DNA of 39,899 bases, from the sequence record MZ234023.1. One strand, 5' to 3'. Of the stretch, positions 3,001 through 31,153 are shown one piece after another (within the stretch, counting starts at the first letter, position 1; each line of letters begins with the position of its first letter). Origin of the DNA: Escherichia phage vB_EcoP-101120B2. Below the pieces are notes generated by a model. The model had not been told where the DNA came from. It made no database searches and saw only the letters and a program-made list of their open reading frames with translations. The translations under genes and the position numbers were made by a program.

Positions 3001-3303
3001 CTACCTCGTTCTCCTACAGAGAAGCCTGAGCGTGCCATCGCGTATGGTGCAGCTACAAGTGACCCTGTGATGAATGTTGTTGGTAACTTCTTGGAGCAGG
3101 TTCCAGCTTTCGGATATGCTGCTAACGTTGGCGCTTCGGCTTACAACTTGGCTGGCTACCTCAAGGCTGATACTCGTGTCAACGAGCGTGACTACATGAC
3201 CGGGATGTATAATACGTTCCGTGAACTGGTTCCGAACGACCCCATTACCCAGAAGCTGCTGCTTGGAACGTTTGAGGAGCAAGGCATCCACATCAAGGAC
3301 TAA
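1..3303 (+). CDS. Internal virion protein D (gp16-like), C-terminal ~1100 aa; 5' partial at window edge
   Basis: Long uninterrupted ORF. Translation aligns from recalled T7 gp16 residue ~230 onward (e.g. TRWNNHKWSREELDQIRN, VITGGSPQNLTELINLA, GVIGAGVDPLTYVP motifs). Position directly upstream of the tail fibre gene as in T7. Confidence 0.85.
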   Translation: MQEQEDRSTWFGFGAATEAEVKNSMVGVAIRAGQTEDSLDVIGDVFNPTRWNNHKWSREELDQIRNAGVLPQYYGVITGGSPQNLTELINLALENQKLDQEKAKAGTGAQLAAGVIGAGVDPLTYVPIAGQVGKGGKLVNKMFTVAAQSGALAGASEIARTSVAGGDAHVAEAILGGALFGGGMTAIADGLGRALGRNTNEFAGPATRLEARETARNVDGQDLSRLPIQEGEQTFSHQGVKFADVPNEPGSVRLEDGSILIGENPLNPKTRQVFDEVIEPERAAAGVNLGGLTEIGLKLLRSENPEIRGVAADLVRSPTGMQSGASGKIGTTASDVFERLRSVDHRFYNDIDDAVTEALKDPYFQTAFWRDSGAFRQDIYQRVSMAIEDGSGNLKAELTPGELKVYDLLKNQFDAKREMMENPAMFGRPDAQSIFPGSRFKGTYVPHVYSKQMKELYIKELGSPEALQEAIKKSWLTSYASRPEVKKRVDEALLEADPTLTPEGLAAAVDKYANDKAYGISHTEQFERSSVMEENINGLVGLENNSFLEARNLFDSDMSIVLPNGQTFSVNNLREWDMDKIVPAYNRRVNGDIAIMAGTGKTTKEMKDLVETMMNKAGDDGKLKGEVSTLRDTLKILTGRARRDGADDAAFATVMRTMTDLSFFAKNAYMGVQNLTEIGGMLARGNVRALLHGVPMFRDLAFRNKKVGASEIKDLHNVIFGKELDDSIRPSKQDVIDRLRSYSDLSRGTATALGTAKYYTGELAVRSPFTKVLNGTTNYLLDAGRQGFLSDIVEHSLTGSKRKFDDRWLKTAGISGEQWSGIKSLIRESVTRGPDGKYTIKDKKAFSQDPRAMDLWRMGDTIADETLLRPHKLSNMDAKAYGPLAKTVLQFKNFVIKSINGRTMRTFYNATKNNRAIDAALSTVMSMGLAGIYYMAQAHVKAYAMQDGRDRDYLKQALDPTMIGYAALSRSSHLGGPLGVANILGGIAGYEDTKMLRSSILPRSPTEKPERAIAYGAATSDPVMNVVGNFLEQVPAFGYAANVGASAYNLAGYLKADTRVNERDYMTGMYNTFRELVPNDPITQKLLLGTFEEQGIHIKD

Positions 3304-3320
3304 ACTATCACTATAGGAAA
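3299..3320 (+). promoter_or_regulatory. Phage RNAP promoter (phi17 equivalent) upstream of tail fibre gene
   Basis: Sequence TAAACTATCACTATAGGAAA matches the window-wide repeated promoter consensus and resembles T7-group promoters (CACTATAGG core). Confidence 0.7.
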
Positions 3321-6428: not shown

Positions 6429-6688
6429 CGCAGATGGACTTAGAGAAGTTCCTCTTGATGCTGGATACTGAACGTGCTAGACTCATGCTGCAAGACCTGC
6501 GGGATGACTCTAAGCGTTCACCTCAGCTTTACAACGCCATTGAGAAGCTACTGGCTCGTCACAACTTCGTGCTAAGTAAGGTGTCTGTGGACGAGAAGAC
6601 GCTGGCTGATATGGAGGCCCTGAACGCAGAGTACGATAAGGTGCTTTCAGCGACTGAGGATAATGACACCGGGTATGGCGTTCAATAA
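6425..6688 (+). CDS. Terminase small subunit (gp18-like)
   Basis: 87-aa product with FLLMLDTERARLMLQDL...RSPQLYNAIEKLLARH resembling T7 gp18. ATGA overlap with the holin stop. Confidence 0.85.
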   Translation: MTQMDLEKFLLMLDTERARLMLQDLRDDSKRSPQLYNAIEKLLARHNFVLSKVSVDEKTLADMEALNAEYDKVLSATEDNDTGYGVQ

Positions 6689-6694
6689 GTGTTA

Positions 6695-6736
6695 GACTCA
6701 AGGTCATTACTATATGTAGTGGCCTTTATGGTTAAC
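6695..6736 (+). promoter_or_regulatory. Conserved structured RNA element, probable RNase III processing site
   Basis: Motif GACTCAAGGTCAT...GTGGCCTTTATGGTTAAC, one of three near-identical copies (also 16393 and 23617). Resembles T7 R1.1-type RNase III substrates from memory. Confidence 0.4.
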
Positions 6737-6789
6737 ACTAACTAGTGGAGGAGACTCTACGTGAAATCTGATAAACCGGGAGGGCAACT

Positions 6790-7233: not shown

Positions 7234-7670
7234 TGCTCAGTGATTCGTATTTCTATGATGAGTCCAGTAAGTCTGGCCTGAAGTCCCTGCGTTCTGGTAA
7301 GGATGTGGGGTGTGTGGGAAACCACGGGTATTATCAGGTAGGAACTCGACGTCATGGACTCCTGCTGGCCCATAGAGTCGTCTGGGAGCTAACCAACGGT
7401 CCTATACCAGAAGGGATGGAGATTGACCATATCGACCGCTGCCGGACTAACAACAGGCTGGACAACCTCCGGCTAGTTACTTCAAGCGAGAACTCCTGCA
7501 ACACCTCAGGACATTCCGACTCAAAGACTGGAGTTAAGAACATATCGTTCCATCAGAATGGCTACGCTATCGAGGTCATGCGTAAGGGGGTCCGTATGCG
7601 AACAACACGTCCTACTTTAGAGGAGGCTATCTCTGTCCGGGACCTAATGCTGGAGGGACTCTATGTCTAA
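7230..7670 (+). CDS. HNH homing endonuclease with C-terminal AP2-like DNA-binding domain
   Basis: 146-aa ORF with ATGA overlap to Rz stop and 8-nt overlap with large terminase start. HNH-like motif [26 protein letters not shown]-terminal [33 protein letters not shown] resembles AP2 domains. No counterpart at this position in T7. Confidence 0.75.
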
Positions 7671-9429
7671 GAAAACACCTGCTGAAAGACAGGCTGAAAT
7701 GACCCAAAGGATGAGGGACGACTTCGTGTTCTTCATCTTCGTTCTCTGGAAAGCGCTGAGCCTTCCGGTTCCAACCAGATGTCAGATAGATATGTGTAAG
7801 AAGCTGGCTGCTGGCGATAACCGACGCTTCATCCTTCAGGCGTTCCGAGGTATTGGCAAATCGTTTCTGACCTGTGGTTTCGTGGTCTGGAAGCTATGGA
7901 ATAACCCAGACTTGAAGTTCATGATTGTGTCGGCCTCAAAGGAGCGAGCCGATGCTAACTCCATCTTCATCAAGCGAATCATCGACCTCATGCCTCAGCT
8001 TCAGGAACTCAAACCTAAGCAGGGACAGCGAGATGCGGTTATTAGCTTCGACGTGGGACCTGCCAAGCCAGACCACTCACCTTCGGTTAAGTCCGTTGGT
8101 ATCACTGGTCAGTTGACTGGTAGTCGTGCTGACATCCTGATTGCCGATGACGTGGAGGTTCCGAACAACTCAGCGACTCAGGCTGCACGAGACCGTCTAT
8201 CAGAGCTTGTGAAAGAGTTCGACGCTATCCTGAAGCCGGGAGGTACGATCATCTATCTGGGTACTCCTCAGAACGAGATGACCCTGTACCGTGAGCTGGA
8301 AGGTCGTGGGTACACCACTACTATCTGGCCCGCTCGTTATCCACGCGACAGGAAGGACTGGCAGTCTTACGGCGACCGTCTGGCTCCTATGCTTCAGGCA
8401 GAGCTGGAAGAGGACCCTGAGTCCTTCTACTGGCGTCCGACTGATGAAGTACGCTTCGATGATACGGACCTGAAGGAACGTGAGCTGTCCTACGGTAAAG
8501 CTGGCTTCGCTCTACAGTTCATGCTTAACCCGAACCTGAGTGATGCCGAGAAGTACCCTCTTAAGCTCCGTGACCTTATCGTAGCCGACTTGGACCCAGC
8601 GTCCAGCCCAATGGCCTACCAATGGTTGCCGAACCCTCAGAACAAGCGTGAGGACGTTCCTAACGTTGGACTCATGGGTGACTCGTACCACACGTATCAG
8701 ACTGTAGGTTCTGCCTTCAGCTCATACACCCAGAAGATTCTGGTCATTGACCCTAGTGGTCGTGGTAAGGATGAAACTGGATATGCGGTACTGTACCAGC
8801 TCAACGGCTACATCTTCGCTATGGAAGTTGGTGGCATGCGTGGTGGTTATGAATACTCTACGCTGGAAGCCTTGGCTAAGATTGGTCGTAAGTGGAGGGT
8901 AAACGAATACGTCATTGAGGGTAACTTCGGTGATGGTATGTACCTTGAGCTATTCAAGCCTGCATCGGCCCGTATCCATCCTGCGGCTGTAACTGAAGTG
9001 AAGAGTAAGGGTCAGAAAGAACTACGCATCTGTGACGTTCTGGAGCCTATCATGGGGTCTCACAGACTTATCGTTAACGCTGCTGCTATCGTCCAAGACT
9101 ACCAGACAGCCTCTGACAAGGATGGTGTTCGTAACCCTATCTACTCTCTATTCTATCAGATGACACGTATCTCTCGTGAGCGTGGAGCCTTGGCACACGA
9201 TGACCGACTTGATGCGCTGGCTATCGGTGTACAGTTCTTCGTTGAGTCGATGGCTAAGGATGCCAACAAAGGCGAACGTGAAGTCACTGAGGAATGGCTG
9301 GAGGAACAGATGGAGAACCCACGGAAAGGCTTCGAGTCCATCCACACTGAGTTCTGGGACAATGGGGTCCGGGTAACTCACGATACGGACGACGAGCTTG
9401 GACTAGGGTCATACGTTACGTTCCACTAG
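7663..9429 (+). CDS. Terminase large subunit (gp19-like)
   Basis: 588-aa ORF, size and sequence similar to recalled T7 gp19 (ATPase and nuclease regions). GGAGGG RBS. Confidence 0.9.
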
Positions 9430-9524
9430 CTGAATGAATAATTATAGGTGAAAGCCGCATGAATACGCGGTTAGTAACCTATAGTTACTACCAGTCTAAC
9501 ATACTGTTTTACAAGGAGTTTGGA

Positions 9525-9547
9525 CTTAACTATCACTATAGGGAAGA
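9525..9547 (+). promoter_or_regulatory. Phage RNAP promoter (phiOR equivalent)
   Basis: CTTAACTATCACTATAGGGAAG downstream of terminase, position equivalent to T7 phiOR. Confidence 0.65.
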
Positions 9548-9726
9548 CCCCCGGTTACTTATAGTATTACTGTAGTGAATATACATATGCAGACTTTATG
9601 CAAGACCTTAGGAGGCAGACTCCGAGTTCTTACCTAAGGCTTGCACCGATGGAAGGAGGGTGATATTAATCATAATCCCTCCAATACAGATAGTCACCGA
9701 CCATAGATACAGGAGGTATGTAGCAT

Positions 9727-9885
9727 ATGGCAAAGACCAAAGCTGTACTTAAAGCTCTGGCGACCAATCGAGCTACATACAGGTTTCTTGCTGCTGTTCT
9801 ACTTGCTGCTGGCGTTACTGCTGGAAGTCAGTGGGTCGGGTGGGTCGAGACTCTCGTATGTTCTCTGGTGTCTGAGTGTCGTTAA
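9727..9885 (+). CDS. Small membrane protein (gene 19.5-position ORF)
   Basis: 52-aa ORF (below the ORF-track cutoff) with AGGAGG RBS 10 nt upstream. Hydrophobic core FLAAVLLAAGVTAGSQWVGWV. Sits downstream of the phiOR-like promoter as T7 gene 19.5 does. Confidence 0.4.
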   Translation: MAKTKAVLKALATNRATYRFLAAVLLAAGVTAGSQWVGWVETLVCSLVSECR

Positions 9886-10121
9886 CGCCGTAATGGTAAC
9901 AATCAACGAAAGTAAGACCTAAGGTCAGTTCATAGCTGACGCTACTCTACTGACCTTAGCTACTGTAGTCAAGGACTTTAGGTAACACCTTAAAAGAAGC
10001 TCACTTAGGGTCATCCTACTTATTGGTCTATCCTAGTGTCGCCTGACCTACGGTCCTTGACCTACAGTAGCTGGTTCCTAAGGAGGGACGATGAGTTTTG
10101 GACCAAAAGTTTGAGACCACA

Positions 10122-10335
10122 TCTCACAGTTCAAGAACATCAAGTCTCCCCCATAGGCCTCTTTCAGTCCAGACCAAAGGCCCTACCCCAGTCTATCATA
10201 AGGTTGGACCGATGGTCAAGACTTCAGGTCAACGATAGGTTGTGGCTATGGCTTAGGGAAGGACGATAGGTTGGGACTATGGGTCTGTCTTTGAGTCTCT
10301 ATCTGTATCAGACCTTGAGTCACTACCTACAGTCT
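10122..10335 (+). repeat. Probable direct terminal repeat / concatemer junction (single copy); physical left end inferred near 10122
   Basis: Begins TCTCACAGT and contains CCCCCATAGG, GGGTCTGTCTTTGAGT, CCTTGAGT and TACAGTC, which recall the T7 left-end terminal repeat in the same order. Boundaries approximate. Confidence 0.35.
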
Positions 10336-10393
10336 AACTACCTACAGTCATCGACCATCGGTAATGCCGCTACCTACAGTCATCGACCTACGG
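10323..10393 (+). repeat. Short direct repeats CTACCTACAGTC(ATCGACC), three copies, with related GACCTACRGT copies at 10045-10070
   Basis: Direct observation. Analogous in position to the short CCTAAAG repeats flanking the T7 terminal repeat. Confidence 0.5.
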
Positions 10394-10507
10394 TTAATAG
10401 ACACAAGGATATAGACTTAAGGTCTAATACATGTTAGTCAAAGACTATATCCTCTTAGTCACTATGGGGCCGACGATAGCTTAATCAATATTATTTAAGA
10501 TTACCTA

Positions 10508-10540
10508 TTGACTACAGGTCCAGACTATGGCTTAATAGCT
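10508..10540 (+). promoter_or_regulatory. Candidate host sigma70 early promoter (A1-like)
   Basis: TTGACT, 17-18 bp spacer, then a weak -10 (CTTAAT/TTAATA). Confidence 0.3.
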
Positions 10541-10648
10541 TCCGTCAACACGACACGGCAACAACCGGATAGTGAAGACGCCGGGTCATCCCGGTTAAGT
10601 AGACAGCCTGATAAGTCATACGAACAACAGGCAGATGACAGAAAGTAG

Positions 10649-10686
10649 TTGACAAGATGTACCGACTTAAAGTAGTATGTACCACA
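10649..10686 (+). promoter_or_regulatory. Candidate strong host sigma70 early promoter (A2/A3-like)
   Basis: TTGACA at 10649-10654, 18-bp spacer, TAGTAT -10. Flanking sequence resembles the T7 A2/A3 region (GTAGACAGCCTGATAAGTC ... GTTGACAA). Confidence 0.5.
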
Positions 10687-10794
10687 TCAACACGAAACAA
10701 CGGTGACGACCAACACTGAAACGGTCTACCTGAAGTCCTCTGACTGAAGGGAATGCTCTTTAACAATCTGGATAAACTCTTAATGTGCGCCGAC

Positions 10795-10854
10795 AGTGAT
10801 TAACTACAGGGTCTTTGAGTCTACATCTGAAGGCCCTGACTGATAGTCACTAAC
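10795..10854 (+). repeat. Early-region repeated element copy 1 (AGTGATTAACTACAGG ... CCTGACTGATAGTCACTAAC)
   Basis: About 60-bp element with imperfect terminal inverted repeats. Shares its central segment with copy 4 (11998-12057). Immediately precedes an early ORF. Confidence 0.7.
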
Positions 10855-10861
10855 TTAACGG

Positions 10862-11116
10862 ATGGACACTATGAAACACTTAAGCACAATCACTAATCGC
10901 AATGAAGTATTCGTGAACACTAAAGGTTATGCGTGGATTCAGCTTAAAGAGATGAGAGGAGCGCGTCACCGTGTGGTAGTTCGCAAGGTATCAAGCAAGC
11001 CGTTCAGCAACTACAGCGTAGATACTATGCGTATAGACAACGAGACTTACCTGATAGACTCGCAGATAACCGTGCGTCCTACAGCGGGCATCTCAGCTCC
11101 TTATTTCGCTAACTGA
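10862..11116 (+). CDS. Hypothetical early protein
   Basis: 84-aa ORF downstream of repeat element; weak RBS; no recognisable homolog. Confidence 0.5.
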   Translation: MDTMKHLSTITNRNEVFVNTKGYAWIQLKEMRGARHRVVVRKVSSKPFSNYSVDTMRIDNETYLIDSQITVRPTAGISAPYFAN

Positions 11117-11117
11117 G

Positions 11118-11226
11118 AGTGATTAACTACAGGTCGTTAGACTGATAGCGGCCTGACTGATAGTCACTAACAAGTGATTAACTACAGGTCGTTAGACTGA
11201 TAGCGGCCTGACTGATAGTCACTAAC
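11118..11226 (+). repeat. Early-region repeated element copies 2 and 3, perfect tandem duplication of a 54-bp unit
   Basis: 11118-11171 and 11173-11226 are identical, separated by one base. Same termini as copies 1 and 4 but a different central segment. Confidence 0.8.
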
Positions 11227-11254
11227 ACATAATTAACTTTGAGAGGATATAACT

Positions 11255-11761
11255 ATGGAACGTAATGCTAACGCATACTATGAGCTGCTGGCTGCAACCG
11301 TTGAGGCATTTATCGAGCGTATTCAGTACGACCACCTGACTCAAGATGATGACTACAGCGATGCGCTGCATGAGGTCGTAGACGGTCAGGTTCCACACTA
11401 TTACCACGAGATTTTTACGGTGATGGCTGCTGATGGTATAGACCACGAGTTCGAAGACTCTGGGCTGATGCCTGAAACCAAGGACGTAACGCGTATCCTA
11501 CAAGCTCGCATCTATGAGGCGCTTTATAACGATGTGTCTAATAGCTTGGATGTAGTCTGGTTTGAGGATGAAGAGGCAGAAGAAGAGGATGAATATTGGG
11601 TAGTTGACGCTAAAACAGGCGCAATAATTGTGCAAGCTGTAGCTCTTGAGGTCGCTACTGCATGTACCAAGGTTAACTATGCGGCAGGTCGCCACCTGAA
11701 GGTGGAAGACATCAATGATAACGTAGTGTTCGACCCTGCGGCTGAGGACTGCGAGCGATGA
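11255..11761 (+). CDS. ocr: Ocr-like anti-restriction protein (gp0.3) with ~50-aa C-terminal extension
   Basis: GAGAGGA RBS. Residues ~30-105 ([44 protein letters not shown]) closely match recalled T7 Ocr, followed by an acidic stretch. The ORF continues to 168 aa, whereas T7 Ocr is 117 aa. Confidence 0.8.
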
Positions 11762-11928
11762 TAACTTACGGTTTATGCCAGCACCACGTCACCAACGCCC
11801 GACTTATGGTCAAGACCGGGCGGTTAACCCATGATGAGACTATGCGTCTCCTGAAGGTGGTCTACAAGCGCCGCAAGCGCATACACGACAGTTTGCACGC
11901 TGAGGATAACCAACAATGCTCCAGATAA
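11758..11928 (+). CDS. Hypothetical small basic protein (translationally coupled to ocr)
   Basis: 56-aa ORF whose ATG overlaps the ocr stop (ATGA). Below ORF-track cutoff. No homolog recognised. Confidence 0.3.
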
Positions 11929-11997
11929 CTTATAGCAGCGAACAAGCGTTCTACGACGGGTGCTACGAGATGATGAAGCGCGATACTTGCTAGCGAC

Positions 11998-12057
11998 AGT
12001 GATTAACTACAGGGTCTTTGAGTCTACATCTGAAGGCCCTGACTGATAGCCACTAAC
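11998..12057 (+). repeat. Early-region repeated element copy 4
   Basis: Near-identical to copy 1 (one substitution, TAGTCACT to TAGCCACT). Precedes the ORF at 12074. Confidence 0.7.
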
Positions 12058-12073
12058 AACTGAGAGGACAGAT

Positions 12074-12301
12074 ATGAACACAATCACTGGTGCCATAGCC
12101 AAAGGTTTTCGAGCAATTTTCAGTGAATCGCAAGAAGTATGCACCAATCATAAATTCGTACTTTCTTGCGTAGTAGGGGACGAGTTTGACGGATTCGATA
12201 AACTGGTGGTTTGCGACCATTGTGGACAAGAGGCTATCCAACGCTCAAACGGTAAATTTGAATTAATAGACGATAGCCTTACAGAAGGAGACGGCGAGTA
12301 A
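12074..12301 (+). CDS. Hypothetical early protein with possible Cys4 zinc-binding motif
   Basis: 75-aa ORF with GAGAGGA RBS. Cys at 23, 32, 47 and 50 (CDHC). Confidence 0.5.
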   Translation: MNTITGAIAKGFRAIFSESQEVCTNHKFVLSCVVGDEFDGFDKLVVCDHCGQEAIQRSNGKFELIDDSLTEGDGE

Positions 12302-12334
12302 CCTAGATAAACAGGAGAGAACCAAATCGTAGCT

Positions 12335-12362
12335 TGACCATAACGCTGACAGGTGGATACTG
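12335..12362 (+). promoter_or_regulatory. Candidate sigma70 promoter
   Basis: TTGACC, 16-bp spacer, GATACT (the same -10 hexamer as T7 A1). Confidence 0.3.
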
Positions 12363-12433
12363 AGTGATAGACGAGAGGCCGTCGAATGATAGGTGGCCTC
12401 AAAGATTATCACTTGAATTAATAGGAGTTAACT

Positions 12434-12523
12434 ATGAGTGTGGGATATTGGGTCTGCCTAGCGCCAGTTATCTGGATGATAGGCTATGGGTTATACGACT
12501 GTATTAAACGGAAATCACTATGA
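12434..12523 (+). CDS. Hypothetical 29-aa hydrophobic peptide
   Basis: TAGGAG RBS. ATGA overlap with the next ORF. Hydrophobic sequence. Confidence 0.3.
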   Translation: MSVGYWVCLAPVIWMIGYGLYDCIKRKSL

Positions 12524-12717
12524 GTCTTGCACTATTGATAGCCATAGGCTATGGACTTATCGCATACGTGCTGGTGAGAGACATCAACAAGGCACGTAAA
12601 GTCTATAAATTCAACTATGTACGTATGGTCCGCTGGACTGTACGTCAACCTAACGGACGATTCCTGCGCAATTTAGCGAACGTCTGGGATATAGCAACTC
12701 TTGGGAGCAAACTGTAA
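12520..12717 (+). CDS. Hypothetical small membrane protein
   Basis: 65-aa ORF with N-terminal hydrophobic helix (SLALLIAIGYGLIAYVLV). Overlapping start and stop with neighbours. Confidence 0.5.
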   Translation: MSLALLIAIGYGLIAYVLVRDINKARKVYKFNYVRMVRWTVRQPNGRFLRNLANVWDIATLGSKL

Positions 12718-13043
12718 TGAACAAGTCATACGGGATTAATCTGGTACACTCTATGGACGCAGAAATGAACATGTTAAGCCTACTGGCTACCGGGTATCGT
12801 CACGGAACGTCAAGTCACACCGCACGTCAACAGCAGGAGAGGGACCGTGTACTACAGGCGCGACTCAGGGCAGAGGGCCATAAGTCCGAACTGATGTGTC
12901 TGGCGTATGGCGGACGACCGATCACTGACGATGGTAAACTTCTGGTATCAGGCTGGAAGGCGATAGACCAACGGTCAACCATCAAGCACACGACTCACGG
13001 TGACTTCAGCCGTCTCCACGCTAACCCACTGATATGCAAGTGA
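12717..13043 (+). CDS. Hypothetical early protein
   Basis: 108-aa ORF with GGGAG RBS, occupying the position of T7 gene 0.7. No kinase motifs recognised. Confidence 0.55.
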   Translation: MNKSYGINLVHSMDAEMNMLSLLATGYRHGTSSHTARQQQERDRVLQARLRAEGHKSELMCLAYGGRPITDDGKLLVSGWKAIDQRSTIKHTTHGDFSRLHANPLICK

Positions 13044-13050
13044 TTATGAC

Positions 13051-13072
13051 TTAACTATCACTATAGGACTCA
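13051..13072 (+). promoter_or_regulatory. Phage RNAP promoter immediately upstream of the RNAP gene
   Basis: TTAACTATCACTATAGGACTC, 70 bp upstream of the gene 1 start codon. Followed by a repeat-rich leader (AAGTGAAAGAC x2, GACTTTAAGT x2). Confidence 0.6.
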
Positions 13073-13140
13073 AGGTCTAAGACTCCAAGTGAAAGACCAA
13101 AGAGACTTTAAGTGAAAGACTAATAACAAGGACTTTAAGT

Positions 13141-15822
13141 ATGAGCGTCATCTCTATTGACAAACACGACTTCTCTGATGTGTCGAACGCCATTGAGCCG
13201 TTTAACCTGCTGGCTGACCACTACGGGCAAGACCTTGCAGTCAAACAGCTTCAGCTTGAGCATGAGGCCTACACTGAAGGTGAGCGACGTTTCATCAAGA
13301 ACCTTGAGCGTCAGACCGAGCGAGGGGAACTGGCAGACAATCAGGTCGCCAAGCCTTTGATGCAGACTCTGGTTCCTAAGATTGCGCAAGCCGTCAAGGA
13401 GTGGCACGAAGGTCCAGACGGGAAGCTGTCAACCTCACGTCCGAGCGTAGCGTTCACCATGTTAAGCACTGAAGAGAAGGCCGTCAAGGACCGCTCTCTT
13501 CGCATCTCCTGCGAGTCTGCTGCGGTTATCATACTGAAGGTCATCCTCTCCAAGCTGGTCAAGCCTGAAGGTATACCGATTACACCGATGGCCTCCGCGA
13601 TAGGTCGCACACTTGAGGATGAAATCCGATTCGGTCGCATTCGTGACAAGGAGAAGGAGCACTTCAAGAAGGCGATAGCTGATAACCTGAACAAGAGAGC
13701 CGGGGCATCATACAAGAAAGCCTACATGCAAGCGGTCGAGACATCCATGCTGGAGCAAGGCCAACTAGAAGATGCGTGGGGAACTTGGAGTCCGACCGAG
13801 GCTGTCCACGTTGGAATCAAGATGCTGGAGATTGTCATACAGTCAACACAACTGGTCGAGCTTAAGCGTTACGGTGCTGGCAATGCAGCGGCTGACGTTG
13901 AGATGGTCCACCTGTCAGACTTCTGGGTCAAGAAGATGGCACAACGAGGATTCAGCCTTGCGGGTATCGCCCCAGTCTACCAGCCTTGCGTCGTTCCGCC
14001 TAAGCCGTGGACTGGTGTCGTAGGCGGTGGGTATTGGGCCAAAGGTCGAAGACCATTGCCACTGATTCGCTTAGGGTCTAAGTCTGCGGTAGCACGTTAT
14101 GAAGACGTATACATGCCTGAAGTCTATGAAGCTGTGAATATCATCCAGAATACACCTTGGAAAGTGAACAAGAAGGTATTGGACGTGGTGAACAGGGTCG
14201 AGAAGCTGAACAACACGCCTATTAATGACATCCCTCAGATGGAACCGCTGAAGCCTGAGGACTATGCTGGTGAAACCGAGGAGGAACTCAAGGCATGGAA
14301 GAAGGCTGCTGCTGGTATCTATCGCCGCGAGAAGGCCAGACAGTCACGCAGATTATCACTGAGCTTTATCGTTAACCAAGCAAACAAGTTCTCTCAGTTC
14401 AAGGCCATCTGGTTCCCGTACAACATGGATTGGCGAGGTCGTGTCTACGCTGTCCCGATGTTCAACCCTCAGGGTAACGACATGCAGAAGGGGCTCCTGA
14501 CTCTGGCAGTCGGCAAGCCTATTGGTGCTGACGGTTTCAAATGGCTGAAGGTCCACGGTGCAAACTGTGCGGGTGTCGATAAAGTCACCTTCGATGAGCG
14601 CATCAAGTGGGTGGAAGACAACCACGAAAACATCATGGCTGCTGCTAAGGCACCGATGGATAGCATTGAGTGGTGGGGCAAGTTAGACTCTCCGTTCTGC
14701 TTCCTAGCGTTCTGCTTCGAGTATGCTGGCGTAATGCACCACGGCTTGTCTTACTCCTGCTCGCTGCCGATAGCGTTCGATGGGTCCTGCTCTGGGATTC
14801 AGCACTTCAGCGCTATGCTTCGCGACCACATCGGTGGACATGCAGTAAACCTGACGCCATCCGGTAAGGTCCAAGACATCTACCGCATCGTGTCTGACCG
14901 CATTGAGGAGGAGCTTAAAGTCCTACTGGTTAACGGTACGGACAACGAGATGGTAACTCACGAGGACAAGAAAACTGGTGAGATTACCGAGCGTCTCAAG
15001 CTGGGGACACGAGAGCTTGCCCGTCAGTGGCTGACCTACGGTATGTCACGAAAGGTCACTAAGCGTTCGGTCATGACTCTGGCCTACGGGTCGAAAGAGT
15101 ACGGCTTCGCAGACCAAGTTTACGAGGACATCGTGATGCCAGCGATTGACTCAGGGTCTGGCGCTATGTTCACTGAACCAAGCCAAGCAGCTCGCTTCAT
15201 GGCTAAGATGATTTGGGAAGCTGTGAGTGTGACCGTAGTTGCTGCGGTTGACGCGATGAAATGGCTTCAGGGTGCTGCCAAGCTGCTTGCTGCTGAAGTG
15301 AAGGACAAGAAGACTGGAGAAATCCTGAAGCCTTGTCTTCCGGTACACTGGGTCACACCTGATGGTTTCCCTGTCTGGCAGGAATACCGAAAGAAGGACA
15401 CCACTCGTCTGAACCTGATGTTCTTAGGGTCATTCAACCTTCAGCCTACCGTCAACAAAGGCACGAAGAAAGAGCTGGACAAGCACAAGCAGGAGTCAGG
15501 CATTAGCCCGAACTTCGTCCACTCACAAGATGGTAGCCACCTCCGCAAGACTGTAGTCCACACGCACCGCAAATATGGCGTGATGTCATTCGCAGTGATT
15601 CACGATAGCTTCGGGACCATCCCGGCTGACGCTGAGTATCTGTTCCGTGGAGTCCGTGAGACGATGGTCGAGACCTACCGCGACAACGATGTGCTGCTTG
15701 ACTTCTACGAGCAGTTTGAATACCAGCTTCACGAGAGCCAGAGAGACAAGTTGCCTGAGCTTCCTAAGAAAGGTAAACTGAATATCGAAGACATCTTGTC
15801 TTCAGACTTTGCATTCGCTTAA
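13141..15822 (+). CDS. Single-subunit DNA-dependent RNA polymerase (gp1)
   Basis: 893-aa ORF. Extensive identity to recalled T7/T3 RNAP (YMPEVYEAVNIIQNTPWKVNKKVL, WFPYNMDWRGRVYAVPMFNPQGNDM, HGANCAGVDKV, FAVIHDSFGTIPADA, C-terminal SDFAFA). Confidence 0.95.
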   Translation: MSVISIDKHDFSDVSNAIEPFNLLADHYGQDLAVKQLQLEHEAYTEGERRFIKNLERQTERGELADNQVAKPLMQTLVPKIAQAVKEWHEGPDGKLSTSRPSVAFTMLSTEEKAVKDRSLRISCESAAVIILKVILSKLVKPEGIPITPMASAIGRTLEDEIRFGRIRDKEKEHFKKAIADNLNKRAGASYKKAYMQAVETSMLEQGQLEDAWGTWSPTEAVHVGIKMLEIVIQSTQLVELKRYGAGNAAADVEMVHLSDFWVKKMAQRGFSLAGIAPVYQPCVVPPKPWTGVVGGGYWAKGRRPLPLIRLGSKSAVARYEDVYMPEVYEAVNIIQNTPWKVNKKVLDVVNRVEKLNNTPINDIPQMEPLKPEDYAGETEEELKAWKKAAAGIYRREKARQSRRLSLSFIVNQANKFSQFKAIWFPYNMDWRGRVYAVPMFNPQGNDMQKGLLTLAVGKPIGADGFKWLKVHGANCAGVDKVTFDERIKWVEDNHENIMAAAKAPMDSIEWWGKLDSPFCFLAFCFEYAGVMHHGLSYSCSLPIAFDGSCSGIQHFSAMLRDHIGGHAVNLTPSGKVQDIYRIVSDRIEEELKVLLVNGTDNEMVTHEDKKTGEITERLKLGTRELARQWLTYGMSRKVTKRSVMTLAYGSKEYGFADQVYEDIVMPAIDSGSGAMFTEPSQAARFMAKMIWEAVSVTVVAAVDAMKWLQGAAKLLAAEVKDKKTGEILKPCLPVHWVTPDGFPVWQEYRKKDTTRLNLMFLGSFNLQPTVNKGTKKELDKHKQESGISPNFVHSQDGSHLRKTVVHTHRKYGVMSFAVIHDSFGTIPADAEYLFRGVRETMVETYRDNDVLLDFYEQFEYQLHESQRDKLPELPKKGKLNIEDILSSDFAFA

Positions 15823-15837
15823 CAACAGGAGAAGTAT

Positions 15838-16068
15838 ATGTCAATGAAACTTGTAGCACACAACAGGGTATTCAACGATGGGTCGGGACGTTGCCATGTA
15901 GAGCTGACTTATAAGGATTTAATCATTCTCCGAGACAGATTACAGTCGGGTGTGACTGGGTGGATTCAACCTAACGAGTACAACCTTATAGCTTCGATTG
16001 ATGAAGTTCTTAACGCGTGGATGGAAGACGAGCGCATTCAGTATCCGTCATTCCCTCTAATTAGATAA
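15838..16068 (+). CDS. Hypothetical protein
   Basis: 76-aa ORF with AGGAG RBS directly after gene 1. T7 has no gene here. Confidence 0.55.
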   Translation: MSMKLVAHNRVFNDGSGRCHVELTYKDLIILRDRLQSGVTGWIQPNEYNLIASIDEVLNAWMEDERIQYPSFPLIR

Positions 16069-16078
16069 GGAGAGAGTT

Positions 16079-16294
16079 ATGAAATTTGCACACAAGCATA
16101 CTGGCGTTAATGGTGGGACTCAAATCGTGACCGTAACAGAACACAACGGCAAGGGTCTGGTGAAGACCACGGTCATCCCTACCGAGATGTCCAAGCAGCT
16201 TAACATCCCGTTCAAGACTCTTGTATATCTGGTCGAGTCCAGCCACGAGAAGTACCTGAAGGACGCAGTGTCCAAGCTGGAGCAGGCCAAATGA
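16079..16294 (+). CDS. Hypothetical protein
   Basis: 71-aa ORF with AAGGAG RBS. No homolog recognised. Confidence 0.55.
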   Translation: MKFAHKHTGVNGGTQIVTVTEHNGKGLVKTTVIPTEMSKQLNIPFKTLVYLVESSHEKYLKDAVSKLEQAK

Positions 16295-16371
16295 CAGACA
16301 TACAGTTACTGGCCCTGTGGCTGGGAGCACTCGCAGTATTCACTTTAATCCAACGCAGAAGAGGTTAACCC

Positions 16372-16392
16372 TAAACTATCACTATAGGCTTA
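16372..16392 (+). promoter_or_regulatory. Phage RNAP promoter (phi1.1 equivalent)
   Basis: TAAACTATCACTATAGGCTTA. Confidence 0.7.
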
Positions 16393-16436
16393 GACTCAAG
16401 GTCATGACTCAAAGTCGTGGCCTTCATGATTAACCC
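16393..16436 (+). promoter_or_regulatory. Probable RNase III processing site (R1.1 equivalent)
   Basis: GACTCAAGGTCATGACTCAAAGTCGTGGCCTTCATGATTAACC, second copy of the conserved motif, between promoter and gene 1.1 as in T7. Confidence 0.4.
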
Positions 16437-16465
16437 TAAATAAACACTACTGGAGATTTAACCGT

Positions 16466-16645
16466 ATGTATCAGAACACTATCAACTTCGAGCGCATCCG
16501 TGAACGTCAGCAGACTGAAGGTTACATCCCTAAGGGCCGCAAGCTGAACAAGACTAAACGTGGCGGTGGTATCAAAGGCGCTTTCAGAAACGCTGAAGGT
16601 AAAGACTCTCTGGTCAACCAAGAGAAATACTTCGTAGGAGCATAA
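16466..16645 (+). CDS. gp1.1-like small basic protein
   Basis: 59-aa ORF (below ORF-track cutoff) with GGAG RBS. Contains GRKLNKTKR, matching recalled T7 gp1.1. Confidence 0.6.
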   Translation: MYQNTINFERIRERQQTEGYIPKGRKLNKTKRGGGIKGAFRNAEGKDSLVNQEKYFVGA

Positions 16646-18237: not shown

Positions 18238-18259
18238 CTAAGCTATCACTATAGGACAA
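18238..18259 (+). promoter_or_regulatory. Phage RNAP promoter
   Basis: TAAGCTATCACTATAGGACAA. Confidence 0.7.
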
Positions 18260-19047: not shown

Positions 19048-19206
19048 ATGACTGACGTAGAGAAGAAGTACATCGTGGAGCTTGAGGGTCGCATTCAGTC
19101 CTTCGAGGTTCCGGTGTACGCAAAGTCTCTTGAAGAGGCTACCCTGAAGTCCCAAGAGTATGAGGACGCTGGGTTTGTGGTCGGACGGATTCGCCCTGAG
19201 ACCTAA
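19048..19206 (+). CDS. gp2-like inhibitor of host RNA polymerase
   Basis: 52-aa ORF (below cutoff) with [25 protein letters not shown]...GFVVGRIRP aligns with recalled T7 Gp2 (SFEVPIYAETLDEA...GFEVTRVRP). Confidence 0.65.
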
Positions 19207-19224
19207 ACTATCACTGTAGGACAG
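19204..19224 (+). promoter_or_regulatory. Phage RNAP promoter (phi2.5 equivalent), one mismatch
   Basis: TAAACTATCACTGTAGGACAG, with TATAGG replaced by TGTAGG. Confidence 0.55.
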
Positions 19225-21367: not shown

Positions 21368-21580
21368 ATGATTAAACTTATTGAATTTCTGGGTCGTCTG
21401 GTTGTGCGTGGCTATTCTCGTGCTGCGAGTGTGGAACGAAAAGTCGCATCTGCTGCGGCTAAAGGTGCGGAAGCGGCTGCTGCGGAAGCGGATAGTCTGC
21501 GCATCAAGTCTCTGGACGCTGGCCTACGTGCCAAAGGTCTTGACAAGAAAGCCGAGCAACTGAAAGGCTTCTTCAGCTAA
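21368..21580 (+). CDS. Hypothetical protein, Ala/Lys-rich
   Basis: 70-aa ORF with TAAGGAG RBS. Confidence 0.5.
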   Translation: MIKLIEFLGRLVVRGYSRAASVERKVASAAAKGAEAAAAEADSLRIKSLDAGLRAKGLDKKAEQLKGFFS

Positions 21581-21600
21581 ACTATCACCTTAGGGATGAG
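21578..21600 (+). promoter_or_regulatory. Degenerate phage promoter-like sequence
   Basis: TAAACTATCACCTTAGGGATGAG has two mismatches in the CACTATAGG core. Followed by a GGGATGAGACC/GGTCTTGTCCC hairpin and a T-rich run. Confidence 0.3.
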
Positions 21601-23448: not shown

Positions 23449-23613
23449 TTGCTAAGAAAACTTAAAGCTCGCTACCATCGGTTCATGTACAAATGGTGGA
23501 GCGATGAAGCAACCTGCCTGTCGAACATTCTGGGAGACCAGCGGTTCAACTCTGAGGCATGGAAGAAAGCTAACCGGAAGTTCATGTATCACTTCTTGCG
23601 TACAGACTTCTAG
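23449..23613 (+). CDS. Hypothetical small basic protein (TTG start inferred)
   Basis: TAAGGAGGAG RBS followed by TTG. The ORF-track ATG at 23416 lies inside gp4 without an RBS. Confidence 0.35.
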   Translation: MLRKLKARYHRFMYKWWSDEATCLSNILGDQRFNSEAWKKANRKFMYHFLRTDF

Positions 23614-23616
23614 GTC

Positions 23617-23658
23617 TAGACTCAAGGTCATTCATAGCGAGTGGCCTTTATGATTAGA
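23617..23658 (+). promoter_or_regulatory. Probable RNase III processing site upstream of DNA polymerase gene
   Basis: AGACTCAAGGTCATTCATAGCGAGTGGCCTTTATGATTAGAC, third copy of the conserved motif. Confidence 0.4.
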
Positions 23659-23677
23659 CTAAAGCGGAGGATTAACC

Positions 23678-27330: not shown

Positions 27331-27352
27331 TAAACTATCACTATAGGGACTT
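27331..27352 (+). promoter_or_regulatory. Phage RNAP promoter (phi6.5 equivalent)
   Basis: TAAACTATCACTATAGGGACTT. Confidence 0.7.
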
Positions 27353-28585: not shown

Positions 28586-30154
28586 ATGGCTGAACGTGAA
28601 GGGTTCGCTGCTGAAGGAGCCAAAGCGGTCTATGACCGACTGAAGAACGGTAGACAGCCATATGAGACACGCGCTCAGAACTGTGCTGCTGTCACTATCC
28701 CGTCACTGTTTCCTAAGGAGTCCGACAACTCGTCTACTGAGTACACCACTCCGTGGCAATCTGTGGGTGCTCGCTGCTTGAACAACTTGGCTGCGAAGCT
28801 GATGTTGGCATTATTCCCTCAGTCACCGTGGATGCGACTTACAGTCTCCGAATATGAGGCAAAGACCTTGAGTCAGGACTCAGAGGCGGCTGCTCGTGTT
28901 GATGAAGGGCTGGCTATGGTCGAGCGTGTGTTGATGGCTTACATGGAGACTAACAGTTTCCGTGTCCCATTATTCGAGGCGCTGAAGCAGCTTATCGTCT
29001 CAGGTAACTGCCTGCTCTACATCCCTCCTCCAGAACAAGGAACCTACAGTCCTATGCGAATGTACCGCTTAGTGTCCTACGTTGTTCAACGTGATGCTTT
29101 CGGTAACATCTTACAGATTGTGACTCTCGACAAGGTAGCGTTTAGTGCTCTACCGGAAGACGTGAAGTCTCAACTCAACGCAGACGACTATGAGCCTGAC
29201 ACCGAGCTTGAAGTGTATACGCACATCTACCGTCAGGACGACGAGTATCTGCGCTACGAGGAAGTGGAAGGCATTGAGGTGACAGGTACCGATGGTTCCT
29301 ACCCGCTGACTGCATGTCCATACATCCCGGTACGAATGGTTCGACTGGATGGTGAAGACTACGGTCGTTCTTACTGCGAGGAGTATCTGGGCGACCTCAA
29401 CTCGCTGGAGACGATTACAGAAGCTATCACAAAAATGGCTAAGGTAGCCTCCAAGGTGGTGGGCCTCGTTAACCCGAACGGTATCACGCAACCTAGACGT
29501 CTGAACAAGGCGGCTACAGGTGAGTTCGTGGCTGGTCGAGTTGAGGACATCAACTTCCTGCAACTGACGAAAGGTCAGGACTTTACGATTGCTAAGTCGG
29601 TGGCTGACGCTATCGAGCAACGTTTAGGCTGGGCCTTCCTTCTTAATAGTGCTGTTCAGCGTAATGCCGAGCGTGTCACTGCTGAAGAGATTCGTTATGT
29701 TGCTGGCGAACTGGAGGCGACCTTAGGTGGCGTGTACTCAGTACAGTCACAAGAGCTTCAGTTGCCTATCGTCCGTGTGCTGATGAACCAACTTCAGTCT
29801 GCTGGCATGATTCCAGACCTTCCGAAAGAAGCGGTAGAGCCTACGGTCTCCACTGGTCTGGAAGCGTTAGGTCGTGGTCAGGACTTAGAGAAGCTGACTC
29901 AGGCAGTCAACATGATGACCGGGCTACAGCCTCTACAACAGGACCCAGACATTAACTTGCCTACACTGAAGCTGCGACTGCTGAATGCCTTAGGCATTGA
30001 CACCGCTGGTCTGCTACTGACTCAGGACGAGAAGTTGCAACGCATGGCTGAACAATCCGCTCAAGGAGCTGTGGTCAATGGTGCGTCTGCTGCTGGTGCT
30101 AACATGGGTGCTGCTGTGGGTCAGGGAGCTGGTGAGGACATGGCTCAAGCCTAA
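28586..30154 (+). CDS. Portal / head-tail connector protein (gp8)
   Basis: 522-aa ORF with extensive identity to recalled T7 gp8 (YETRAQNCA, SLFPK, MYRLVSYVVQRDAFGN, CPYIPVRMVRLDGEDYGRSY, GLVNPNGITQPRRL). Confidence 0.95.
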   Translation: MAEREGFAAEGAKAVYDRLKNGRQPYETRAQNCAAVTIPSLFPKESDNSSTEYTTPWQSVGARCLNNLAAKLMLALFPQSPWMRLTVSEYEAKTLSQDSEAAARVDEGLAMVERVLMAYMETNSFRVPLFEALKQLIVSGNCLLYIPPPEQGTYSPMRMYRLVSYVVQRDAFGNILQIVTLDKVAFSALPEDVKSQLNADDYEPDTELEVYTHIYRQDDEYLRYEEVEGIEVTGTDGSYPLTACPYIPVRMVRLDGEDYGRSYCEEYLGDLNSLETITEAITKMAKVASKVVGLVNPNGITQPRRLNKAATGEFVAGRVEDINFLQLTKGQDFTIAKSVADAIEQRLGWAFLLNSAVQRNAERVTAEEIRYVAGELEATLGGVYSVQSQELQLPIVRVLMNQLQSAGMIPDLPKEAVEPTVSTGLEALGRGQDLEKLTQAVNMMTGLQPLQQDPDINLPTLKLRLLNALGIDTAGLLLTQDEKLQRMAEQSAQGAVVNGASAAGANMGAAVGQGAGEDMAQA

Positions 30155-30172
30155 ACTATCACTATAGGAACA
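30152..30172 (+). promoter_or_regulatory. Phage RNAP promoter (phi9 equivalent)
   Basis: CTAAACTATCACTATAGGAAC overlapping the portal stop. Followed by a nested inverted repeat (GGAACAAC...GTTGTTCC) at the transcript 5' end. Confidence 0.7.
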
Positions 30173-31130: not shown

Positions 31131-31153
31131 CTAAACTATCACTATAGGGAGAC
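31131..31153 (+). promoter_or_regulatory. Phage RNAP promoter (phi10 equivalent)
   Basis: CTAAACTATCACTATAGGGAGACC, followed by GGGAGACCAAGAGACAGACTCAAGGTTTCCC, analogous to the T7 phi10 leader hairpin. Confidence 0.75.

What the first reader, a model, noticed from the sequence alone, without database searches (positions are those of the whole stretch)
10795..12057. Family of ~55-60 bp structured repeats punctuating the early region, including a perfect tandem duplication
Four copies (10795-10854, 11118-11171, 11173-11226, 11998-12057) share termini AGTGATTAACTACAGG and CCTGACTGATAGTCACTAAC, which are imperfect inverted repeats of each other, with two alternative central segments. Each sits directly upstream of an early ORF (10862, ocr, 12074). 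They may be early RNase III processing hairpins like T7 R0.3/R0.5, or another regulatory element. The exact tandem duplication before ocr suggests recent rearrangement.
Basis: seen in the sequence. Interest (0 to 1): 0.5.

Follow-up and report, generated by a model that had tools for sequence, protein, structure and literature searches.

The report
T7-type RNase III processing hairpins
The repeats are this K1F-like phage's own versions of the well-known hairpins at which the host enzyme RNase III cuts the long early messenger RNA of phage T7 into separate gene messages, so the feature is real but ordinary; the only mild curiosity is that one such site varies between near-identical phages.

Summary
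Four copies sit at the stated coordinates, and two of them form a perfect 55-nt tandem pair. The window is a Kayfunavirus (K1F-like T7 relative), probably phage 101120B2.

The repeats align base-for-base with the five classical T7 early RNase III sites and the five curated T3 "RNase III recognition site" stem-loops. All 14 sequences share one structure: lower stem, internal loop, upper stem. It is 93% paired, against 31-46% in slid controls, and 11 of 18 pairs show compensatory changes.

A covariance model built from them finds eight sites in the window, all on the transcribed strand and all intergenic. On held-out T3 sequence it recovered three of five annotated late sites with no unannotated hits at E<1. 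The two "alternative central segments" are compensatory variants of the same upper stem.

The tandem pair is one allele of a series. Phages identical over 3.4 kb carry hairpin-ORF-hairpin, hairpin-hairpin (this window) or a single hairpin.

Verdict: a new, unannotated member of a known kind. Interest is low.

The parts
10649..10678 (+). Host sigma-70-type early promoter (TTGACA-18-TAGTAT). It is the likely start of the early transcript that runs through the hairpins.
   Evidence: Best promoter-like match in 9400-13200, 10 of 12 positions. This is a consensus match only. Its position is equivalent to the T7/T3 A promoters.
10795..10854 (+). Hairpin A, the first early RNase III-type site and the positional and sequence counterpart of T7/T3 R0.3. 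Predicted cut is after U10841 (CCUGACU|GAUAG).
   Evidence: Covariance model 55.7 bits, E 1.5e-11. Fold -24 kcal/mol, z -2.25. Aligned with T7 R0.3, sharing the GGG/CCC upper stem.
10862..11116 (+). 84-aa early ORF between hairpins A and B1. Its stop codon abuts B1. It is conserved in all Kayfunavirus loci examined.
   Evidence: No Pfam family.
11118..11171 (+). Hairpin B1. Predicted cut is after U11158.
   Evidence: Covariance model 66.3 bits, E 2.8e-14. Fold -25.3 kcal/mol, z -4.49; the minus strand has z -0.30.
11173..11226 (+). Hairpin B2, an exact tandem copy of B1, 28 nt upstream of ocr. Predicted cut is after U11213.
   Evidence: 55-nt unit repeated twice at 100% identity. Covariance model 56.7 bits. 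Fold z -4.11. In PM129-type phages a 92-aa ORF lies between B1 and B2.
11255..11761 (+). ocr (gene 0.3 homologue), the gene served by hairpin B2.
   Evidence: Pfam PF08684, E 3.5e-30.
11998..12057 (+). Hairpin D, an A-type copy 98% identical to A over 64 nt. A T->C change at 12050 weakens its lower stem. It lies 16 nt upstream of the 75-aa ORF at 12074-12301. Predicted cut is after U12044.
   Evidence: Covariance model 53.8 bits. The minimum-energy fold keeps the upper stem but loses the lower stem, z -0.39.
12361..12417 (+). Fifth early hairpin, diverged from the others. It has the same two-stem architecture but lacks the invariant U before the predicted cut.
   Evidence: Covariance model 31.9 bits, E 1.9e-5. 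Fold -22.9 kcal/mol, z -4.26. Present in all 12 related Kayfunavirus loci examined that have an intact early region.
16384..16441 (+). Canonical T7-type site (ACUCAAGGUCAU...GUGGCCUUCAUGAU) just after a phage promoter at 16372-16388. This is the R1.1/R1.3-like arrangement.
   Evidence: Covariance model 43.8 bits. Fold z -4.60. Promoter match. The T3 phi1.1/R1.1 layout is shown.
23613..23665 (+). Canonical T7-type site 13 nt upstream of the 723-aa DNA polymerase ORF (R4.7-like).
   Evidence: Covariance model 45.8 bits. ORF map. The K1F equivalent, 12856-12908, precedes gene 5. Fold z -2.81.
6686..6743 (+). Canonical T7-type site between the gene 18-like and gene 18.5-like ORFs (R18.5-like).
   Evidence: Covariance model 59.8 bits. 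ORF map. The K1F equivalent, 36446-36503, lies between genes 18 and 18.5. Fold z -4.12.

Best explanation
The repeats are RNA-level processing signals of the T7 type. Host RNA polymerase starts at the early promoter near 10650-10680 and makes one long early transcript. In that RNA each repeat folds into a hairpin of about 54-60 nt. The hairpin has an 8-bp lower stem (AGUGAUUA/UAGUCACU), an asymmetric internal loop, a 10-bp upper stem and an apical loop.

Host RNase III binds this interrupted two-turn helix. By homology with T7, it cuts a single phosphodiester on the 3' side of the internal loop, after the invariant U (CCUGACU|GAUAG). The predicted cuts are after 10841, 11158, 11213 and 12044.

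The cut separates the polycistronic precursor into gene-sized mRNAs. It leaves most of the hairpin as a protective 3' end on the upstream message. It gives the downstream message (84-aa ORF, ocr, 75-aa ORF) a defined 5' end 20-40 nt before its ribosome-binding site.

Shown here: homology to experimentally established sites, the covarying structure, strand specificity, intergenic placement and conservation. Inferred: cleavage itself, its exact position, and its effects on mRNA stability and translation.
For: 1. Homology. The four copies align with the T7 intergenic hairpins before genes 0.3, 0.5, 1, 1.1 and 1.3, and with T3's five curated 'RNase III recognition site' stem-loops. The invariant columns are U..AGG / G.CCU...U.

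2. Common structure. One two-stem structure fits all 14 sequences: 92.9% of cells are paired, against 31-46% when partners are slid. 11 of 18 pairs have changes on both sides, and 0 of 500 shuffles reach the observed covariation score. On 64 hits from 17 relatives the figures are 95.8% paired and 115 double-change cells. The A-type and B-type 'central segments' differ by compensatory changes, for example G-C versus U-G and C-G versus G-C.

3. Model performance. The covariance model hits eight sites in the window and 64 in relatives, all on the + strand. On the held-out T3 late region it recovered the annotated R4.7, R6.5 and R18.5 sites and nothing unannotated at E<1.

4. Strand specificity. 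Plus-strand folds have z -2.3 to -4.5, while the minus strand of the same DNA has z about 0. This is as expected from G-U pairs.

5. Cleavage position. The T7 cleavage positions I recall from Dunn & Studier 1983 (890, 1468, 3138, 5887, 6448) all fall, by hand count on the sequences, on the same invariant U column of alignment A2.

6. T7 background. Five co-transcriptional early cuts and a single-phosphodiester cleavage of R1.1 are described in PMC4858673. Internal loops that limit cleavage to one bond, and the resulting 3' hairpins that protect against 3'-5' exonucleases, are described in PMC1540722.

7. Conservation. The B unit is found in 112 phage records at 80-100% identity, across Escherichia, Enterobacter, Salmonella, Yersinia, Citrobacter, Klebsiella, Hafnia and Pantoea phages.
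Against: No cleavage data exist for this phage or, as far as I could find, for any Kayfunavirus. A search for 'RNase III' plus 'Kayfunavirus' returned no papers.

Rfam has no family for these sites, so there is no independent curated model.

Copy D's lower stem is broken by an A.C mismatch and folds weakly (z -0.39).

The repeats use ACAGG/CCUGA where most T7 sites have CAAGG/CCUUU. A C-G pair next to the loop could lower catalytic reactivity if it falls on the proximal-box position described in PMC1540722. However, T7 R1 and T3 R1 carry the same variant.

Kayfunaviruses lack a gene 0.7 kinase, which in T7 stimulates RNase III. No ORF of that size lies between ocr and the RNA polymerase gene.
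Confidence: 0.85

Rival explanations
1. The hairpins are mainly structural mRNA elements: 3' stabilisers, translation modulators, or RNase III binding sites that are bound but not cut. Alternatively they are processed by another nuclease such as RNase E.
For: The structure is under selection, but nothing here shows cleavage. PMC1540722 describes base pairs that allow binding while suppressing cleavage. The repeats have a C-G pair at the loop-proximal end of the upper stem, where most T7 sites have A-U.
Against: T7 R1 and T3 R1 carry the same ACAGG/CCUGA variant. The internal-loop residues around the T7 scissile bond, including the invariant U followed by GAU, are retained in all four copies.
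Confidence: 0.08
2. The repeats work primarily at the DNA level, as recombination joints or cassette boundaries that promote gain and loss of small early genes. On this view the RNA structure is secondary.
For: There are three alleles at one hairpin site in phages with 0 mismatches over 3.4 kb: B-orf92-B, B-B and B. The orf92 homologues in Teetrevirus and Apdecimavirus (60% amino-acid identity, E 6e-40) keep a B-type hairpin at their 3' end. Copy D is an A-type copy where other lineages have a different variant.
Against: Breakpoints of indels of 25 bp or more among 12 Kayfunavirus early regions are not significantly enriched at hairpins: 7 of 34 against 13.9% expected, P 0.19. Strand-specific folding and G-U-mediated covariation point to selection on the RNA. 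The sites keep orthologous positions across genera. Any 54-nt direct repeat will recombine, so no special function is needed to explain the alleles.
Confidence: 0.05
3. They are intrinsic (rho-independent) transcription terminators or attenuators of early transcription.
For: They are stable G+C-containing hairpins in intergenic regions. One GenBank record (phage ASO2B) labels the B hairpin 'terminator'.
Against: No U-tract follows any copy; the tails are AACUUAACGG, AACAAGUG, AACACAUAAU and AACAACUGAG. The terminator scan found none at these positions. Essential downstream early genes, including the RNA polymerase gene, depend on read-through.
Confidence: 0.01
4. They are copies of a small mobile element (MITE-like, or a homing-endonuclease target) that has spread within the early region.
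For: The unit has terminal inverted repeats, there are several near-identical copies, and copy number varies between close relatives.
Against: All eight copies lie in one orientation, on the transcribed strand only. No target-site duplications are visible. They are homologous to the T7 and T3 sites at orthologous intergenic positions. No copies were found elsewhere in the genome on either strand beyond the model hits.
Confidence: 0.01

Closest known systems
Bacteriophage T7 early RNase III processing sites R0.3, R0.5, R1, R1.1 and R1.3 (Dunn & Studier). R1.1 is the standard E. coli RNase III model substrate (Nicholson lab; PMC1540722, PMC4858673).
   Same: The architecture is the same: lower stem, asymmetric internal loop and an upper stem of about 10 bp. 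The conserved residues are the same (U..AGG / G.CCU, and the U before the scissile bond). So are the intergenic position just upstream of a ribosome-binding site, the transcribed strand, and the location in the host-polymerase early transcript.
   Different: The loop-proximal motif is ACAGG/CCUGACUGAU rather than CAAGG/CCUUUAUGAU; only T7 R1 shares the ACAGG/CCUGA part. The apical parts are longer: A-type copies have a 12-nt apical loop. Four copies are nearly identical to each other, whereas the T7 sites are individually diverged. One site is tandemly doubled. Cleavage has not been demonstrated.
Bacteriophage T3 'RNase III recognition site' stem-loops, as curated in NC_003298 (R0.3 to R18.5).
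   Same: The sequences can be aligned directly, and they were used together with the T7 sites to build the model. The held-out T3 sites R4.7, R6.5 and R18.5 are recovered by that model. The window also has R4.7-like, R18.5-like and promoter-adjacent R1.1-like sites.
   Different: No counterparts of the atypical short T3 sites R3.8 and R13 were detected in the window; the model also misses these in T3 itself. No hairpin precedes the RNA polymerase gene in the window. A phage promoter sits there instead.
Orthologous unannotated hairpins in phage K1F and other Kayfunavirus, Teetrevirus, Apdecimavirus and Berlinvirus genomes.
   Same: K1F has A-type (707-769), B-type (1030-1086), diverged (1766-1822), post-gene-1, pre-gene-5 and pre-18.5 sites at the same relative positions. 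The B unit occurs in 112 phage records.
   Different: K1F has one B copy and lacks the D copy with its 75-aa ORF. K1F-type A copies have the 5' arm AGCGACUAAC, whereas in the window it is identical to that of B. None of the records examined labels these sites as RNase III sites. Some label them 'terminator' or lay a hypothetical protein over them.

Membership tests
T7-group RNase III processing signal (single-cut, internal-loop type) | The transcribed-strand RNA folds into a helix of about two turns, interrupted by an internal loop. At least about 10-11 bp lie between the cut and the apical loop. | tested here: met
   Copies A, B1 and B2 have an 8-bp lower stem, an internal loop and a 10-bp upper stem. 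The covariance model assigns the same structure to all eight sites. The requirement for an 11-bp helix is from PMC1540722. Copy D's lower stem is weakened.
T7-group RNase III processing signal (single-cut, internal-loop type) | Sequence homology to experimentally defined T7 sites and curated T3 sites, including the conserved residues flanking the internal loop. | tested here: met
   Alignment A2 has invariant columns U15, A18 G19 G20, G43, C45 C46 U47 and U51. Model scores are 54-66 bits, E 1e-11 to 1e-14.
T7-group RNase III processing signal (single-cut, internal-loop type) | The structure is maintained by compensatory substitutions, indicating selection on the RNA fold. | tested here: met
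   92.9% paired against 31-46% when slid, 11 of 18 pairs with double changes, and 0 of 500 shuffles reaching the score. On 64 sequences, 95.8% paired (that alignment was fitted to the model, so it leans towards the structure).
T7-group RNase III processing signal (single-cut, internal-loop type) | Located between genes, on the transcribed strand, inside a polycistronic transcription unit, and close upstream of a ribosome-binding site. | tested here: met
   All hits are on the + strand and intergenic. A host-type promoter lies upstream at 10649-10678.
T7-group RNase III processing signal (single-cut, internal-loop type) | Proximal-box and distal-box base pairs are compatible with E. coli RNase III binding and catalysis, with no antideterminant pairs. 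| tested here: inconclusive
   The box positions could not be mapped unambiguously from the text of PMC1540722, because its figures are not held. Empirically, every upper-stem pair type in the repeats except G23-C42 has a precedent in a T7 or T3 site, including C17-G48 in R1.
T7-group RNase III processing signal (single-cut, internal-loop type) | [quoted passage not shown] | not testable with these tools
   No transcript-end data for any Kayfunavirus were found.
Intrinsic transcription terminator | A G+C-rich hairpin followed immediately by a U-tract. | tested here: not met
   No T-run follows any copy. No terminator-like site was found at these positions.
Any curated Rfam RNA family | A match to a covariance model at or near its gathering score. 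| tested here: not met
   Only two chance-level matches (E 5-9) were found elsewhere in 9400-16500.

The most novel reading that the evidence does not exclude
Besides acting as RNase III sites, the near-identical hairpins may serve as portable homology patches that let small early genes move as 'ORF plus hairpin' cassettes between Studiervirinae phages. On this reading the window's empty hairpin-hairpin doublet is either a vacated slot or a ready slot for such a cassette. Its sibling phages carry a 92-aa ORF exactly there, and that ORF keeps a B-type hairpin at its 3' end even in Teetrevirus and Apdecimavirus phages.
Probability: 0.25. Interest if true: 0.45.

Novelty: new member of a known kind. 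Interest (0 to 1): 0.25.

Why it matters
The practical value is in annotation. Kayfunavirus records, K1F included, do not label these sites as RNase III sites. Some call the B hairpin a 'terminator' or place hypothetical proteins over it.

The alignment and covariance model give exact testable cleavage coordinates. They also show that T7-type RNase III signals are conserved across at least four further Studiervirinae genera (Kayfunavirus, Teetrevirus, Apdecimavirus and Berlinvirus).

For phage engineering, K1F-type phages are used against E. coli K1 and uropathogenic E. coli. The hairpins mark natural boundaries between early messages, and the doublet site tolerates an ORF, an empty doublet or a single hairpin. 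That makes it a plausible neutral insertion point.

Biologically, nothing here changes the established picture of T7-group early mRNA processing.

Tried and rejected
- Rfam scan of 9400-16500 at E<=10 found no relevant family.
- The T7 records NC_001604 and V01146, as held here, list no RNase III features. I therefore used the intergenic hairpins themselves, plus cleavage positions recalled from Dunn & Studier 1983. All five positions land on one alignment column.
- The K1F genome paper (Scholl & Merril 2005) and Panayotatos & Truong 1985 are not held. I could not check whether the K1F authors already mentioned these sites.
- No paper in the library holds both 'RNase III' and 'Kayfunavirus'.
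- I tried to map the proximal and distal boxes of PMC1540722 onto the repeats. This could not be done reliably without the figures.
- Terminator hypothesis: rejected, because there is no U-tract.
- Mobile-element hypothesis: rejected, because all copies have one orientation, sit at orthologous positions and lack target duplications.
- Breakpoint-enrichment test for the cassette-joint idea: not significant, 7 of 34, P 0.19. It rests on a crude global alignment of partly diverged regions.
- Direction of the tandem event: unresolved between a 55-bp duplication of a single copy and a 294-bp loss of orf92 from the two-copy state. PM129 and 101120B1-2 are both identical to the window in the flanks. 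PM129's orf92 differs at 2 positions from the only sequenced candidate donor, 22664UKE3-2.
- A search for the contiguous doublet junction in 50,697 phage records found only two-piece matches, so the doublet is private to this genome in that collection.

Full report
**What the window is**

The 2.8-kb region around the finding matches Kayfunavirus phages (K1F-like members of the T7 subfamily Studiervirinae) at up to 99.7% identity. The RNA polymerase gene lies at 13141-15822 and the large terminase gene at 7663-9429, so the genome is circularly permuted in the window.

The window length of 39,899 bp equals that of phage 101120B2 (MZ234023) in Table 1 of PMC8614997. That phage is a wastewater isolate and one of three ancestors used in an Autographiviridae 'breeding' experiment. 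Its own record was not among the hits, so the identification rests on length and on near-identity to sibling phages.

**Observation**

All four copies are at the stated coordinates.
- The 16-nt 5' terminus occurs exactly four times, and the 20-nt 3' terminus occurs three times exactly plus once with one mismatch (copy D, T->C at 12050). Both are far above chance.
- There are two central variants: A and D versus B1 and B2.
- B1 and B2 form a perfect 55-nt tandem repeat.
- A, B2 and D sit 7-28 nt upstream of the ORFs at 10862, 11255 and 12074. The middle ORF is Ocr (Pfam PF08684, E 3.5e-30).

**Structure and strand**

As RNA, the + strand of A, B1 and B2 folds into an 8-bp lower stem, an asymmetric internal loop, a 10-bp upper stem and an apical loop. 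Energies are -23 to -25 kcal/mol and z-scores are -2.3 to -4.5. The complementary strand of A and B1 folds no better than shuffled sequence, with z about -0.2 to -0.3. That asymmetry is what G-U pairs produce, and it points to function in the transcript.

Copy D keeps the upper stem, but its lower stem is weakened by the 12050 change (z -0.39). The doublet can also fold as one long composite hairpin (-47.7 kcal/mol). That fold would still be double-stranded RNA.

**Homology to known RNase III sites**

The T7 intergenic hairpins before genes 0.3, 0.5, 1, 1.1 and 1.3 fold the same way and visibly share sequence with the repeats. The T3 RefSeq record carries curated stem_loop features called 'RNase III recognition site' R0.3 to R18.5.

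An alignment of the four window copies with the five T7 and five T3 early sites has these invariant columns: U15, A18 G19 G20, G43, C45 C46 U47 and U51. One two-stem structure fits all 14 sequences:
- 92.9% of cells are paired, against 31-46% when the 3' partners are slid by 1-3 columns.
- 11 of 18 pairs change on both sides.
- 0 of 500 shuffles reach the observed covariation score.

A-type copies share the GGG/CCC start with T7 R0.3. This fits A being the first site after the early promoter.

**Cleavage position (part recalled, part checked)**

I recall the T7 cleavage positions from Dunn & Studier 1983 as 890, 1468, 3138, 5887 and 6448. Counting on the sequences, all five fall on the same invariant U (column 51 of alignment A2). 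This cross-checks both the recollection and the alignment.

Transferred to the window, the predicted cut is CCUGACU|GAUAG: after 10841, 11158, 11213 and 12044.

The literature held here confirms the T7 framework. A precursor of about 7,000 nt is cut co-transcriptionally at five sites, and R1.1 is cut at one phosphodiester (PMC4858673). Internal loops restrict cleavage to one bond, and the resulting 3' hairpins protect against 3'-5' exonucleases (PMC1540722).

**Model and held-out test**

A covariance model built from the 14 sequences was run over the whole window with filters off. It found eight sites with E <= 2e-5, all on the + strand:
- the four reported copies;
- a diverged early site at 12361-12417;
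- canonical T7-type sites at 16384-16441, 23613-23665 and 6686-6743.

These last three occupy the expected places. One is just after a phage promoter downstream of gene 1. One is 13 nt before the DNA polymerase ORF. One lies between the gene 18-like and 18.5-like ORFs. All of them fold into the same shape.

On the T3 late region, which was not used for training, the model recovered the annotated R4.7, R6.5 and R18.5 sites. It missed the short atypical R3.8 and R13, and it gave no unannotated hit at E<1.

K1F has the same set of sites at the same relative positions, but its record has no such annotation.

**Conservation**

The B unit is found in 112 phage records at 80-100% identity, across phages of eight host genera. 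In 17 early regions from Kayfunavirus, Teetrevirus, Apdecimavirus and Berlinvirus the model found 64 sites, all on the + strand. On the model-fitted alignment of these, 95.8% of cells are paired and 115 cells show double changes.

**The tandem pair**

Over window 10100-13500, three near-isogenic phages differ only at this site:
- PM129 (a bred phage, 40,193 bp = 39,899 + 294) has 0 mismatches and carries a 92-aa ORF between B1 and B2.
- Phage 101120B1-2 (isolated on the same host strain) has 0 mismatches and carries a single B.
- The window has the empty doublet.

No record among 50,697 phage genomes contains the contiguous doublet junction.

I could not resolve whether the doublet arose by a 55-bp duplication or by a 294-bp loss of the ORF. 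PM129's ORF differs at two positions from the copy in 22664UKE3-2, the only sequenced candidate donor.

**Cassette-like behaviour (suggestive only)**

The 92-aa ORF has homologues in Teetrevirus and Apdecimavirus phages (60% identity, E 6e-40). These keep a B-type hairpin overlapping their stop codon.

K1F-type phages lack both the 75-aa ORF and its preceding hairpin. Other lineages have a different hairpin variant at copy D's position.

A crude test of whether indel breakpoints concentrate at hairpins was not significant: 7 of 34 against 13.9% expected, P 0.19. From memory, T7 early-region deletions between RNase III sites were described by Studier and Dunn. I could not check that here.

**Rivals**

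- Terminators are excluded: there is no U-tract and the scan was negative.
- A mobile element is unlikely: all copies have one orientation and orthologous positions, with no target duplications.
- A purely DNA-level role does not explain strand-specific folding or G-U covariation.
- Binding without cleavage, or processing by another nuclease, cannot be excluded without experiments.

**Verdict**

It is a previously unannotated set of T7-type RNase III processing hairpins in a K1F-like phage: a new member of a known kind, not a new mechanism. The three-allele series at one hairpin site is a neat but minor observation.

Noticed in passing
window 13051-13067 (also 9526-9542, 35914-35930, 3301-3317, 16372-16388, 18239-18255, 19204-19220, 21578-21594, 27331-27347, 30152-30168, 31132-31148): There are eleven + strand matches to T(T/A)AACTATCACTATAGG, against 0.13 expected by chance. 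This is evidently the phage RNA polymerase promoter consensus. One exact copy sits about 75 nt upstream of the RNA polymerase gene itself, where T7 has an RNase III site (R1) and no phage promoter. This suggests the polymerase gene is also transcribed by its own product.
   Followed up: partly
L019 (phage PSK1) 694-756, compared with window 10795-10854: In PSK1 the apical part of the A hairpin is exactly reverse-complemented: GGGCCTTCAGATGTAGACTCAAAGGCCC instead of GGGCCTTTGAGTCTACATCTGAAGGCCC. This palindrome 'flip' preserves the stem, as expected from template switching at a quasi-palindrome.
   Followed up: no
L012 (phage ECG4) 1370-1439: The B hairpin before ocr carries an internal 18-nt direct duplication (CTACAGGTCGTTAGACTG twice) that should distort the upper stem. 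The ocr ORF in ECG4 is also shortened, 111 aa against 168 aa.
   Followed up: no
window 10287-10305 compared with 10811-10829 and 12014-12032: The apical segment of the A/D hairpins (GTCTTTGAGTCTACATCTG) recurs with 2 mismatches in the short-repeat array near the genome's left end. Zero matches are expected by chance. The B core has a looser resemblance at 10511-10534. The origin and meaning of this are unknown.
   Followed up: partly
window 11917-11994: A 25-aa ORF ([25 protein letters not shown]) ends 3 nt before hairpin D. Similar peptides are encoded as 41-aa ORFs in ECG4 and in Enterobacter phage 04_vB_Eclo_IJM. It is below the usual annotation length and is not annotated in the sibling records.
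   Followed up: no
window 12334-12361: A sigma-70-like promoter match (TTGACC-16-GATACT, 9 of 12) ends exactly where the fifth early hairpin (12361-12417) begins. This resembles the T3 'B' and 'C' host promoters, which sit just before R0.5 and R1.
   Followed up: no
GenBank records under the B hairpin (hits H44, H45, H53, H60, H62-H66): Several records annotate the hairpin as a 'terminator' (phage ASO2B) or lay 'hypothetical protein' CDSs across it. None of the records examined labels it as an RNase III site.
   Followed up: no
window 10795-10810 compared with L005 (K1F) 707-769: K1F-type A copies have the 5' arm AGCGACTAAC, which gives a C.A mismatch in the lower stem. In the window, the A and D copies have AGTGATTAAC, identical to the B copies. 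This suggests homogenisation (gene conversion) between hairpin copies within this lineage.
   Followed up: no
window 11255-11761: The Ocr homologue is 168 aa, and the Pfam ocr domain covers only residues 8-95. The C-terminal ~70 residues beyond the acidic stretch have no family match. T7 Ocr is 117 aa (925-1278).
   Followed up: no
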